This document shows positions 3,829-11,444 of a stretch of DNA of 64,000 nucleotides, in pieces (within the stretch, counting starts at the first letter, position 1; every line of letters begins with the position of its first letter). The position numbers and the translations under genes were made by a program. This stretch comes from Escherichia coli (GTDB lineage Bacteria > Pseudomonadota > Gammaproteobacteria > Enterobacterales > Enterobacteriaceae): NCBI RefSeq assembly GCF_003334785.1, contig NZ_QOWV01000001.1; one strand, written 5' to 3'. Below the pieces are notes generated by a model. It searched no databases. It saw only the letters and a list, made by a program, of their open reading frames with translations, and had not been told where the DNA came from.

Positions 3829-3845
3829 TAAACATTAAATAAACC
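3829..3845 (-). promoter_or_regulatory. PhoP box (direct repeat GGTTTA-N5-TGTTTA) in the phoPQ promoter
   Basis: Reverse complement reads GGTTTATTTAATGTTTA, about 60-77 bp upstream of the phoP ATG; matches the known autoregulatory PhoP box. Confidence 0.65.
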
Positions 3846-8443: not shown

Positions 8444-9694
8444 ATGGAAAGTAAAGTAGTTGTTCCGGCACAAGGCAAGAAGATCACCCTGCAAAACGGC
8501 AAACTCAACGTTCCTGAAAATCCGATTATCCCTTACATTGAAGGTGATGGAATCGGTGTAGATGTAACCCCAGCCATGCTGAAAGTGGTCGACGCTGCAG
8601 TCGAGAAAGCCTATAAAGGCGAGCGTAAAATCTCCTGGATGGAAATTTACACCGGTGAAAAATCCACACAGGTTTATGGTCAGGACGTCTGGCTGCCTGC
8701 TGAAACTCTTGATCTGATTCGTGAATATCGCGTTGCCATTAAAGGTCCGCTGACCACTCCGGTTGGTGGCGGTATTCGCTCTCTGAACGTTGCCCTGCGC
8801 CAGGAACTGGATCTCTACATCTGCCTGCGTCCGGTACGTTACTATCAGGGCACTCCAAGCCCGGTTAAACACCCTGAACTGACCGATATGGTTATCTTCC
8901 GTGAAAACTCGGAAGACATTTATGCGGGTATCGAATGGAAAGCAGACTCTGCCGACGCCGAGAAAGTGATTAAATTCCTGCGTGAAGAGATGGGGGTGAA
9001 GAAAATTCGCTTCCCGGAACATTGTGGTATCGGTATTAAGCCGTGTTCGGAAGAAGGCACCAAACGTCTGGTTCGTGCAGCGATCGAATACGCAATTGCT
9101 AACGATCGTGACTCTGTGACTCTGGTGCACAAAGGCAACATCATGAAGTTCACCGAAGGAGCGTTTAAAGACTGGGGCTACCAGCTGGCGCGTGAAGAGT
9201 TTGGCGGTGAACTGATCGACGGTGGCCCGTGGCTGAAAGTTAAAAACCCGAACACTGGCAAAGAGATCGTCATTAAAGACGTGATTGCTGATGCATTCCT
9301 GCAACAGATCCTGCTGCGTCCGGCTGAATATGATGTTATCGCCTGTATGAACCTGAACGGTGACTACATTTCTGACGCCCTGGCAGCGCAGGTTGGCGGT
9401 ATCGGTATCGCCCCTGGTGCAAACATCGGTGACGAATGCGCCCTGTTTGAAGCCACCCACGGTACTGCGCCGAAATATGCCGGTCAGGACAAAGTAAATC
9501 CTGGCTCTATTATTCTCTCCGCTGAGATGATGCTGCGCCATATGGGTTGGACTGAAGCGGCTGACCTGATTGTTAAAGGTATGGAAGGCGCAATCAATGC
9601 CAAGACCGTAACTTATGACTTCGAACGTCTGATGGAAGGCGCTAAGCTGCTGAAATGTTCAGAGTTTGGTGAAGCGATCATCGAAAACATGTAA
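8444..9694 (+). CDS. icd: Isocitrate dehydrogenase (NADP)
   Basis: 416-aa [46 protein letters not shown]... matches E. coli Icd; intact 3' end. Confidence 0.97.
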
Positions 9695-9716
9695 TCTCTC
9701 CATGTGTTAAATATTG

Positions 9717-9749
9717 AAACGGGCGTATAACACGCCCGTTGTTTTATTT
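9717..9749 (+). terminator. Rho-independent terminator of icd
   Basis: Hairpin AACGGGCGT-ataaca-ACGCCCGTT followed by GTTTTATTT, 23 bp after the icd stop. Confidence 0.75.
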
Positions 9750-9796
9750 ATGTGGATATTATTAATAGCATATCGAGCATATTTATATGAAGCCCA

Positions 9797-10120
9797 TTAC
9801 TTGAGCCCATATGGGCATATTTTTATAATGCAACTATTATGTAAACATTTATTTGTTATTTTGCTTTCTCCTGGAGGACACTCTTGACTGCTTTTGAGTA
9901 AACTCCATAAATCCTTGTTGAATGGTGCGATGTGATAAATAGTAATAGGATATTCTTTATCCTTAAGGATAATACCAGACTTAACCGGTGTAAATATACT
10001 GCCAGGAGGGAGAAATATAGTAGATTGATACCAGATGATCATTTTCATATTACCCCATATGGCTGAAAAAGATATACCACATGTAGGTTGAATTACCGTG
10101 TCAATTACTATCCACTTCAT
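9797..10120 (-). CDS. iraM: Anti-adaptor protein IraM (RssB inhibitor)
   Basis: 107-aa [35 protein letters not shown]... recognised as IraM/YcgW; AT-rich surroundings. Confidence 0.85.
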
Positions 10121-10562
10121 TTGTTATGTCTTATCCCACGGTATTTAATATGGTTCATTAGGATGTTTATTTCTTGATTTTGCATATGAGTATATTACCC
10201 CCCCCTCAAAAAAATAAATTAATTAAAATGATGGCTTATATAAAATAAAATTTAAAGCAAGGAATCTCAATGGATGTTAAACAAAATGAGATTTTGTGAA
10301 AGCAATAAATTATTGACTTCGTTTTAGATTTGTTTAGCTATAATGTTATACATTCAAATGACTGAACATCCTGTAATTAAAACATAGCCTTTATGCTACT
10401 TTGTGCCAATTTGCTAAACATTATGGTTGCCTTTTTATATAACGATAATAATGAATATAAGCATGACATGAGAATAAGGTTTCAATTTTTGAGTTATATA
10501 GGAATGATTTAACCTGTTCCTGGCTAAAATACATATAACCGGATGATGACTAAACCAAAATA

Positions 10563-10610
10563 CATGTGCGTTAAGTATTGAAACGGACGTGTGGCACGGC
10601 CGTTGTTTTT
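10563..10610 (+). repeat. Degenerate second copy of the icd 3'-flank/terminator sequence
   Basis: CATGTGCGTTAAGTATTGAAACGGACGTGTGGCACGGCCGTTGTTTTT versus 9701-9745 CATGTGTTAAATATTGAAACGGGCGTATAACACGCCCGTTGTTTT; roughly 80% identity by eye. Confidence 0.5.
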
Positions 10611-10819
10611 ATAAATATGTTAACCGTTATAAAATAACGTATCAAAAGTCAAGTGATCACATTTCAAATATCAAGTTGATAGTATTAGTCTGGTGATTAT
10701 TTATGGGTGACAATAAAAAGACAGTATTAATCATCCATAGAGATAGTCTCTGCACTTTTATTTCCATTATGCTAATGCCTTACTGAATTATGAAGCATTT
10801 CTTAAGTATCCAACTTTAG

Positions 10820-11224
10820 CTAGATTAATGGTTTATTATTTTCTACATCTTCAATATATAAAAGCGTATTATCAATGGCGTAGTAACTGCGTTTGTTATG
10901 ATTAACATCAGTAACCCACCGGAAAACGCCCGCGCCTGCCAGTGTTGAACAGTATTCCCGAAATGTAGATTTTCCGCAAATATGAAGCAATGCGGCCTCT
11001 TTTATTTTAGCAGGGTTCTTGGTCGTACTAACTTTTAACAGGTTCCTGGTTCCTCTTAATAACAAAACCGTATCATCGTGAGTAATAATTCTGATGTTAT
11101 CCGTAGCCAGATAATAAATGTAATGTGCAATACGGTGATGTTTTAATTCTGAATAAAACCAGGAGAAGTTTTGCTCTTTTCTCACTTGCTCAAACATCTT
11201 TTGAAAAACAACGACCTGATCCAT
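10820..11224 (-). CDS. ycgX: DUF1398-family protein YcgX
   Basis: 134-aa ORF MDQVVVFQKMFEQVRKEQNFSWFYSELKHHRIAHYIYY... recognised as YcgX. Confidence 0.8.
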   Translation of the reverse strand: MDQVVVFQKMFEQVRKEQNFSWFYSELKHHRIAHYIYYLATDNIRIITHDDTVLLLRGTRNLLKVSTTKNPAKIKEAALLHICGKSTFREYCSTLAGAGVFRWVTDVNHNKRSYYAIDNTLLYIEDVENNKPLI

Positions 11225-11444
11225 CAGGATAATAACCTCTTGTTAGTTGTGAGACTGCGTAGTGTGCACGATCGGTTTTACCACTTCAATCTGGTCTGTC
11301 CTTTGGCTGTGATATGTACAGAGTGTGATAGAGGGAATATCTGAATTCTCCCGGTGAGCATTTTGCAACGGACCAGCTCCGGTACAAACGCTGTTGTGGG
11401 TTCAGATTATAACATTCTGTCTAAGGGGCGGGATAAAGGTGAAA

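What the first reader, a model, noticed from the sequence alone, without database searches (positions are those of the whole stretch)
9695..10620. e14 prophage absent at icd; a degenerate copy of the icd terminator lies 0.87 kb downstream, bracketing iraM
In K-12 the e14 element is integrated at the 3' end of icd; here icd runs straight into iraM with no prophage. The icd 3' flank and terminator (9701-9745) recur at about 80% identity at 10563-10610, on the far side of iraM. This looks like a scar of an older site-specific integration or excision at the icd attachment site that delivered or left behind iraM.
Basis: partly seen in the sequence, partly recalled or inferred. Interest (0 to 1): 0.5.

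Follow-up and report, generated by a model that had tools for sequence, protein, structure and literature searches.

The report
Duplicated icd terminator brackets iraM insertion
A decaying second copy of the icd transcription terminator marks the far end of an 0.86-kb, low-GC DNA segment carrying the stress-regulator gene iraM that many E. coli strains lack: a small evolutionary scar at a well-known prophage insertion site, not a new kind of system.

Summary
The window is E. coli K-12 with prophage e14 exactly absent. The icd terminator (T1, 9701-9750) recurs at 10563-10610 (T2): 36 of 43 bases without gaps, far above chance.

The 864 bp between the copies (30% GC) carry iraM, its upstream region and ymgK. 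This segment is present or absent between strains, with ends exactly at the repeat. About 3,944 of 5,426 complete E. coli genomes have it. At least 1,037 (E2348/69, ATCC 25922, Nissle 1917) have one terminator joined directly to T2's right flank.

T1's stem never varies. T2 carries different stem or T-tract mutations in different lineages, so it is a decaying relic.

e14 and phage 21 each carry their own icd 3' end plus terminator, so integration here duplicates the terminator. IraM relatives sit as accessory genes in Stx2 and other lambdoid prophages.

The "integration scar" reading is therefore plausible but only partly supported. I found no integrase, no second e14/21 core, no icd coding remnant, and no phage carrying a T2-type copy. 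Whether the iraM-less site is ancestral or a T1 x T2 deletion is unresolved.

Most components are already known, so interest is low to moderate.

The parts
8444..9694 (+). icd (isocitrate dehydrogenase). The last 165 nt (9530-9694) are the segment that e14 or phage 21 replace on integration; here they are identical to MG1655 icdC.
   Evidence: ORF list, RefSeq annotation of the identical MC1061 locus, comparison with MG1655
9526..9550 (+). Left boundary of e14 in MG1655, in the region of the e14/phage 21 attachment core. It is unoccupied here and occurs only once in the window.
   Evidence: e14 feature boundary 1196209 in NC_000913.3; single match allowing 3 mismatches
9701..9750 (.). T1, the icd terminator: 9-bp G+C-rich stem AACGGGCGT/ACGCCCGTT, an A-rich run before it and a T-run after it. 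It probably also terminates the convergent iraM transcript.
   Evidence: Terminator scan. Folds at -21.7 kcal/mol (z -4.1) on + and -17.3 (z -4.6) on -. Stem invariant in 34 copies. Same hairpin follows icd in E. albertii and Citrobacter.
9746..10562 (-). Unique interior of the iraM segment (about 30% GC): iraM CDS 9797-10120 (-), its upstream region, and the small ORF ymgK 10377-10421 (-). It is absent, together with one terminator copy, from iraM-less E. coli.
   Evidence: IraM carries Pfam PF11183 (precomputed) and matches PHROG 4407 at E 4e-51.
10563..10610 (.). T2, the degenerate second copy of the icd terminator. In K-12 the stem has an A.G mismatch and the hairpin is no more stable than shuffled sequence.
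   Evidence: Folding -13.3 kcal/mol, z -0.35. Five haplotypes in 36 loci, none matching the inferred intact ancestor: three with stem mutations, two with a T-tract mutation. The only broken pair in the terminator family alignment.
10610..10660 (.). F, the flank that directly follows the single terminator in iraM-less strains. It is homologous to the DNA that follows the terminator copy at the left end of e14-family elements.
   Evidence: Alignment with E2348/69 and ATCC 25922. Score 18-20 against 8.4 +/- 1.7 for shuffles versus e14 and the Citrobacter elements; weaker (p about 0.1) versus C. amalonaticus.
10657..11224 (-). ymgL (10657-10767) and ycgX (10820-11224), the genes just beyond the distal copy. 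In iraM-less strains they converge directly on the icd terminator. YcgX also belongs to a phage protein family.
   Evidence: Annotations. PHROG 413 at E 1.5e-41. The E. albertii homologue lies between the lysis and terminase genes of a prophage.

Best explanation
The two copies are a duplicated icd terminator marking the ends of an old insertion of about 0.86 kb that brought iraM and its own promoter region between icd and ymgL-ycgX.

The geometry is that of a Campbell-type (single-crossover) integration of a circular DNA that carried its own terminator copy: one target copy on each side of the insert, and a single copy at the empty site. e14 and phage 21 still do this at the same locus. The most likely source is an icd-targeting prophage or integrative element, of which only an accessory gene (iraM) survives.

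Functionally, T1 stays the working terminator for icd and probably for the convergent iraM. T2 is displaced, under relaxed constraint, and decaying.

Shown: the repeat, the exact presence/absence boundaries, the decay of T2, terminator copies on e14 and phage 21, and IraM homologues on prophages.

Inferred: that a mobile element delivered the segment, that recombination occurred in or next to the terminator, and the direction of the event.
For: 1. The repeat is highly significant and unique in the window.

2. iraM-less genomes (E2348/69, ATCC 25922 and others) have icd - one terminator - then exactly the sequence to the right of T2. The interior is present in 3,944 of 5,426 complete genomes. 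The contiguous empty junction is present in 1,037.

3. GC falls from about 51% in icd to about 30% across the segment.

4. e14 carries icd 3' plus a diverged terminator with two compensatory stem changes. Phage 21 and its relatives carry icd 3' plus a terminator identical to T1, followed by int. MG1655 therefore has three terminator copies in a row: e14's, T1 and T2.

5. IraM homologues of 55-70% identity lie in lambdoid prophages between Q or stx2AB and nanS-p/holin, on the opposite strand, and on another IS-rich island. IraM matches PHROG 4407 end to end. UPEC IraL is reported on the potB island (PMC4045071).

6. A third allele, in 19 genomes, has an e14-family left end after icd, then IS remnants, trkG, a divergent iraM (80% nt) and a ymgB-like gene at the same position.

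7. T1's stem is invariant in 34 copies. T2 has five haplotypes in 36 loci, none matching the inferred intact ancestor: three with stem mutations, two with a T-tract mutation. The inferred ancestral T2 had an intact stem.
Against: - No integrase, excisionase or other phage gene remnant lies in 9746-10562. DNA similarity to phages is limited to the iraM CDS (72.6%).
- Only the roughly 47-nt terminator is duplicated. An e14/21-type event duplicates the 165-nt icd 3' end as well, and no trace of it is detectable upstream of T2 (p 0.1-0.8).
- There is no second e14/21 core.
- No phage, viral contig or species-representative genome with the T2 signature (CG insertion, AAGT, GG loop) was found outside this locus.
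- A 47-nt direct repeat can also mediate deletion, so iraM-less genomes could be secondary losses. In that case the boundaries say nothing about how the segment arrived.
- The deeply divergent third allele lacks T2 altogether.
Confidence: 0.55

Rival explanations
1. Direction reversed. The two-copy, iraM-bearing arrangement is ancestral for E. coli. The single-copy site in B2 and some other lineages is a secondary deletion by homologous recombination between T1 and T2. The repeat then matters as a deletion substrate, and the empty site gives no information on how iraM arrived.
For: All sampled iraM-positive lineages share three substitutions and one indel in T2 relative to T1, on top of 1-3 lineage-specific changes. 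If T2 began as an exact copy, the duplication is older than the radiation of phylogroups A, D and E. The inferred ancestral copies shared exact runs of 18 and 15 nt, enough for RecA-dependent exchange. iraM-less sites occur on at least two different flank backgrounds: the B2 cluster, and the JNE120442/APEC 102026 type. The third allele is 12-26% diverged over iraM, its upstream region and ycgX, which suggests that iraM has been next to ycgX for a long time.
Against: The outgroups examined (E. albertii, Citrobacter) have no iraM downstream of icd, so parsimony favours a gain within E. coli. Every empty site sampled has a fully T1-type terminator and none is a T2/T1 chimera. T2 could have arrived already diverged on the incoming DNA. 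This rival still needs an earlier event to create the duplication, so it complements the main explanation rather than replacing it.
Confidence: 0.35
2. No mobile element was involved. The terminator was duplicated locally, by slippage or unequal exchange at the hairpin, or was carried on a linear fragment imported from another lineage by homologous recombination. The second copy is kept because it terminates ycgX-ymgL transcription and insulates the iraM promoter.
For: No integrase or att core lies in the interval. In iraM-less strains one bidirectional hairpin serves the convergent icd and ycgX-ymgL units, so inserting a gene between them creates a need for a second terminator. The inferred ancestral T2 folds well on the minus strand (-15.3 kcal/mol, z -3.5).
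Against: T2 is not conserved. None of the five haplotypes matches the inferred intact ancestor: three carry stem mutations and two a T-tract mutation. The K-12 copy folds no better than shuffled sequence. The U-run after the minus-strand hairpin is poor (UUUCAAUACUU). The low GC and the phage-family membership of IraM point to foreign DNA. The locus is a proven integration site whose elements carry terminator copies.
Confidence: 0.15
3. Chance resemblance of two unrelated intrinsic terminators.
For: Both are short G+C-rich hairpins followed by T runs, a class with convergent features.
Against: Identity includes about 20 nt upstream of the stem and the loop-proximal bases. The score is 29 against a maximum of 17 in 1,000 random targets. 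The copies converge to about 93% identity when the ancestral T2 is inferred from five lineages. The empty-site junction falls exactly at the repeat.
Confidence: 0.01

Closest known systems
e14 and phage 21 integration at icd (Hill, Gray & Brody 1989; GenBank AF017626; reviewed in PMC6379469)
   Same: Same locus. The element carries a copy of host 3' sequence, terminator included, so integration leaves two direct copies flanking the inserted DNA. An accessory gene sits next to the distal junction (mcrA in e14).
   Different: In e14 and phage 21 the crossover lies inside the icd ORF, and the duplication includes the 165-nt coding end (icdC). An integrase is present and excision is observed. Here only about 47 nt of terminator are duplicated, no integrase or core is present, and the insert is 0.86 kb.
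Phage morons (accessory genes with their own promoter and terminator in lambdoid prophages), here the IraM-like genes beside stx2AB
   Same: IraM homologues occupy a typical moron position: between Q or stx2AB and nanS-p/holin, on the opposite strand. The chromosomal iraM likewise has its own upstream region and a terminator at each end.
   Different: The window's iraM is not inside any recognisable prophage. It shares only coding-sequence similarity (72.6% nt) with the phage copies.
Cryptic prophage remnants with relic att repeats (e.g. the 47-bp argU-like repeat at the far end of DLP12, PMC6379469)
   Same: A short direct repeat of the 3' end of the target survives at the far side of degraded foreign DNA.
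   Different: DLP12 still has an integrase and many phage genes. Here a single cargo gene remains, so phage origin rests on family membership and locus history only.

Membership tests
Relic of Campbell-type integration (attL/attR-like direct repeats) | Direct repeats of target sequence at both ends of the inserted DNA | tested here: met
   43 nt at 84% identity without gaps, 864 bp start to start; about 93% identity for the inferred ancestral T2
Relic of Campbell-type integration (attL/attR-like direct repeats) | Related genomes with an empty site holding one repeat copy joined to the distal flank | tested here: met
   E2348/69, ATCC 25922 and three others aligned; 1,037 genomes with the contiguous empty junction
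Relic of Campbell-type integration (attL/attR-like direct repeats) | Integrase or recombinase gene, or a remnant of one, inside the insert | tested here: not met
   The ORFs of 40 aa or more that lie wholly or mainly in 9746-10562 are iraM and two short overlapping frames; phage similarity is limited to iraM
Relic of Campbell-type integration (attL/attR-like direct repeats) | Foreign composition or mobile-element cargo in the insert | tested here: met
   30% GC against 51% in icd; IraM matches PHROG 4407 and has prophage-borne homologues
e14 / phage 21 type integration at icd | Crossover core inside the icd ORF, present at both junctions | tested here: not met
   The core region 9526-9550 occurs once in the window, allowing 3 mismatches
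e14 / phage 21 type integration at icd | Duplicated 165-nt icd 3' fragment (icdC) next to the distal terminator | tested here: not met
   No significant similarity between five icd 3' variants and the 262 nt upstream of T2 in five lineages (p 0.1-0.8)
e14 prophage (is iraM part of it, as stated in PMC4045071?) | The gene lies within the excisable element | tested here: not met
   The window equals MG1655 minus e14 (1196209-1211412) and still contains iraM; iraM lies beyond icdC
Intrinsic (Rho-independent) terminator | Stable G+C-rich hairpin followed by a T run (T1) | tested here: met
   9-bp stem with 6 G-C pairs plus GTTTTATTT; z -4.1 and -4.6; compensatory changes in the e14 copy. Termination itself cannot be tested with these tools.
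Intrinsic (Rho-independent) terminator | Stable G+C-rich hairpin followed by a T run (T2 in this window) | tested here: not met
   A.G mismatch in mid-stem; z -0.35 on + and -0.98 on -; the scan finds only a 5-bp alternative stem
IraM / PmrD-like family (Pfam PF11183) | Full-length sequence match to the family | tested here: met
   PF11183 precomputed for relatives of 94-96% identity; RefSeq names the identical protein 'anti-adapter protein IraM'. Anti-adaptor activity was not tested here (literature: PMC4045071).

The most novel reading that the evidence does not exclude
The DNA downstream of icd may be a layered fossil record of serial integrations. Each icd-targeting element brings a fresh icd 3' end and terminator and pushes the previous terminator outward. 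T(e14), T1 and T2 would then be successive layers. iraM would be the last survivor of one lost element. The T2 flank plus ymgL-ycgX would be the decayed left end of a still older e14-family element. This last point rests on the flank's homology to e14-family left ends and on YcgX belonging to a phage protein family. A stronger variant is that the end of the terminator's T-run is itself an insertion hotspot, distinct from the e14/21 core. IS200C sits at the same position, within one base, in two other strains.
Probability: 0.2. Interest if true: 0.45.

Novelty: new member of a known kind. Interest (0 to 1): 0.28.

Why it matters
The practical value is modest.

1. It corrects a statement in the literature. 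iraM is not part of e14: it stays when e14 is cleanly absent, and it sits in its own terminator-bounded segment.

2. It gives an exact structural account of why iraM, an RssB anti-adaptor that stabilises RpoS under PhoPQ control, is present in most phylogroup A, D and E genomes sampled but missing from B2 strains such as Nissle 1917, E2348/69 and ATCC 25922. This is relevant to strain differences in the general stress response.

3. It links chromosomal iraM to a family of prophage accessory genes, including copies beside stx2.

4. The 47-nt repeat is a ready substrate for spontaneous loss of iraM in laboratory strains.

None of this reveals a new mechanism.

Tried and rejected
- Rfam scan of 9500-11400 at permissive threshold: only sub-threshold chance hits (SNORD72, L20 leader, tpke11), so no known RNA family.
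- Remnant of the icd coding end upstream of T2: none. An eye-alignment of GGATGATGACTAAACCAAAAC with the last icd codons gives about 14 of 21 matches, but only after assuming an 11-nt deletion. I do not count it.
- Second e14/21 core: none.
- PhoP-box consensus within one mismatch in the iraM upstream region: none, so I make no promoter claim.
- Donor search for a T2-type terminator: the genome contigs pattern scan found only T1-type copies after icd in E. albertii and Citrobacter, plus two unrelated or contaminant contigs. It did not even return E. coli, so its sensitivity is limited. The phage BLAST returned only phage-21-type (T1-like) copies. In the viral-contig scan every true hit was this same chromosomal locus inside prophage predictions, and the rest were an unrelated phage family.
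- Flanks of phage iraM copies: no similarity beyond the CDS.
- Outgroup direction test: E. albertii has a degraded phage-21-like prophage at icd followed by an omptin gene, has no bluRF-ycgX island, and shows only one terminator copy. Cryptic-clade YcgX homologues lie at another locus. Direction could not be settled.
- I tried to use which copy looks 'native'. I rejected this because phage-21-type integration and excision can overwrite the proximal copy repeatedly. The icd 3' 166 nt differ at 5-20 sites between any two strains, even within B2.

Full report
**What is in the window.** icd occupies 8444-9694 (+). It is followed by a strong hairpin terminator, then iraM (9797-10120, -). Next come the small ORFs ymgK and ymgL, then ycgX, bluR and bluF, all on the minus strand. 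The window is identical to MG1655 on both sides of e14. Its last 165 nt of icd equal the MG1655 pseudogene icdC, and identity continues through bluF. It is 100% identical to the e14-free K-12 strain MC1061 over 2 kb. So this is K-12 with the 15.2-kb e14 precisely absent. That state is well known: e14 excises after SOS induction and is missing from many laboratory strains (bioRxiv 10.64898/2026.06.14.732165; PMC6379469).

**The repeat.** 9703-9745 and 10567-10609 match at 36 of 43 positions without gaps. With a 2-nt gap the match extends left to CATGTG. The alignment score is 29, against 11.2 +/- 1.3 (maximum 17) for 1,000 composition-matched random targets. No third copy exists in the 64-kb window.

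**What the repeat bounds.** Across 5,426 complete E. coli genomes, the 811-bp interior (9750-10560) is found in 3,944. Genomes that lack it, such as E2348/69 and ATCC 25922, have icd, then one terminator, then directly TATAAATATGTTAACCGTTATAAAATAAC. That is the sequence to the right of the distal copy in K-12. This contiguous empty junction occurs in at least 1,037 genomes, including Nissle 1917. The 864-bp segment is therefore a presence/absence polymorphism whose ends coincide with the repeat. GC drops from about 51% in icd to about 30% across it. The segment is present in phylogroup A (K-12) and E (O55:H7 DEC5D). It is also present in D (an ST70 strain; ST70 is assigned to group D in PMC9082999). 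It is absent from the B2 strains examined. That iraM is variably present, and absent from CFT073, was already reported (PMC4045071). The junction structure was not described there.

**The two copies behave differently.** In five diverse lineages and 36 loci in total, T1 keeps the stem AACGGGCGT/ACGCCCGTT without exception. T2 occurs as five haplotypes, none identical to the inferred intact ancestor. Three carry a stem mutation and two an interrupted T run. The inferred ancestral T2 is CATGTGCGTTAAGTATTGAAACGGGCGTATGGCACGCCCGTTGTTTTT. It has an intact stem and differs from T1 only by a CG insertion, one A>G change, and AA>GG in the loop. K-12 has added three more changes, including an A.G mismatch in mid-stem. 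T1 folds at -21.7 kcal/mol (z -4.1) on the plus strand and -17.3 (z -4.6) on the minus strand, consistent with a bidirectional terminator for the convergent icd and iraM. The K-12 T2 is no more stable than shuffled sequence (z -0.35 and -0.98). T2 is a decaying relic, not a maintained element.

**Why a terminator would be duplicated here.** The elements known to integrate at icd carry host-like DNA that includes the terminator. e14 carries the icd 3' end, followed by AACGGGAGCGTAACGCTCCCGTT. This is a diverged homologue of the hairpin with two compensatory pair changes. Phage 21 and its relatives carry the icd 3' end plus a terminator identical to T1, then arm-type repeats and int. Each such integration leaves one terminator next to icd and one at the far end of the element. 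MG1655 in fact has three copies in series: e14's, T1 and T2. The 42 nt to the right of T2 are significantly similar to the DNA that follows the terminator at the left end of e14-family elements. The score is 18-20 against 8.4 +/- 1.7. Similarity to the native flank in C. amalonaticus is weaker. So terminator and flank F have long been neighbours, and the iraM segment interrupts that pair.

**iraM is mobile-element cargo elsewhere.** IraM homologues of 55-70% identity lie in Stx2-converting and other lambdoid prophages of E. coli and E. albertii. They sit on the opposite strand, between Q or stx2AB and nanS-p/holin, a typical accessory-gene position. Another homologue sits on an island rich in IS, ProQ and PerC genes. 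IraM matches PHROG 4407 end to end at E 4e-51. The UPEC homologue IraL is reported on the potB island (PMC4045071). YcgX, just beyond T2, also belongs to a phage family (PHROG 413). In E. albertii it lies between the lysis and terminase genes of a prophage. A third, rare allele occurs in 19 genomes. It has an e14-family left end right after icd, then IS remnants, trkG, a divergent iraM (80% nt), a ymgB-like gene and a divergent ycgX. It has no T2, F or ymgL.

**What is missing.** The segment holds no integrase or other phage gene. DNA similarity to phages stops at the iraM CDS. The e14/21 core region inside icd occurs once. Nothing resembling the 165-nt icd end lies upstream of T2. No phage, viral contig or species-representative genome with a T2-type terminator was found outside this locus. 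A classical e14/21-type event would therefore need later deletions that removed both the element body and icdC. Alternatively, the crossover took place in or beside the terminator, by an unknown integrase or by homologous recombination.

**Direction.** E. albertii and Citrobacter lack iraM downstream of icd, which favours a gain within E. coli. Against that, all iraM-positive lineages share four T2-specific changes, and the third allele is very divergent. Both points allow an old duplication with later loss by T1 x T2 recombination. iraM-less sites also occur on a non-B2 flank background, where IS200C sits exactly at the terminator|F junction. The sequence of the proximal copy cannot decide which copy is native. 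Phage-21-type integration and excision repeatedly overwrite the icd 3' end; any two strains differ at 5-20 of 166 sites there. I leave direction open.

**Verdict.** The components are known: e14 excision, icd as an attachment site, phage-borne icd ends, variable iraM. The terminator duplication bounding iraM appears not to be described in the papers I could search. It is a small addition, not a new kind of system.

Noticed in passing
L010 3001-3324 (Stx2a phage Stx2_EH2201); L016-L019: An IraM homologue (65-70% identity) lies immediately downstream of stx2AB on the opposite strand, before nanS-p, in 45 of the 46 phage records that matched IraM. Most of those records leave it unannotated. An RpoS-stabilising anti-adaptor next to the toxin genes may be worth a look.
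   Followed up: partly
L093 2911-11400 (E. coli EC42405); L092: A third allele of the icd-ycgX interval occurs in 19 of 5,426 genomes: e14-family left end, a 455-aa hypothetical protein, IS remnants, trkG, a divergent iraM (80% nt), an extra ymgB/ariR-like gene, and ycgX at 88% identity. It has no T2, F or ymgL. This divergence is far above normal E. coli levels.
   Followed up: partly
L105 about 417-1140 (JNE120442); L112 3321-3779 (APEC 102026): IS200C is inserted exactly between the terminator's T-run and flank F (GTTGTTTTT|...|ATAAATAT) in two iraM-less strains. This is the same junction, within one base, as the boundary of the iraM segment.
   Followed up: partly
window 10610-10660 versus L020 1422-1470 (e14), L005, L093: The E. 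coli flank right of the terminator is homologous to the left-end DNA of e14-family elements, including repeated TTATCAAAA-like motifs. Either these elements captured more host DNA than the icd end, or the E. coli flank is itself an old element end.
   Followed up: partly
window 10820-11224 (ycgX); L089 4001-4405: YcgX (DUF1398) matches PHROG 413, which is labelled 'head protein'. Its E. albertii homologue sits between the lysis and terminase genes of a lambdoid prophage. The gene next to the scar is therefore also of a phage family.
   Followed up: partly
window 3829-3845 (-): A perfect PhoP-box consensus (GGTTTATTTAATGTTTA) lies where the phoP promoter should be, judged by gene order in a related genome. 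The regulator reported to induce iraM is thus encoded about 6 kb from it. No box within one mismatch occurs upstream of iraM itself.
   Followed up: no
window 9797-10120; MG1655 L021: PMC4045071 states that iraM 'is found on the e14 prophage'. The MG1655 annotation and this e14-free window show that it lies outside e14, beyond icdC.
   Followed up: yes
L001 1890-1945 (E2348/69): The E2348/69 terminator region (TTAAAAACTGTAACGGGCG) matches the Citrobacter e14-family copies rather than other B2 strains. This is consistent with past replacement of the icd end by an element that later left.
   Followed up: no
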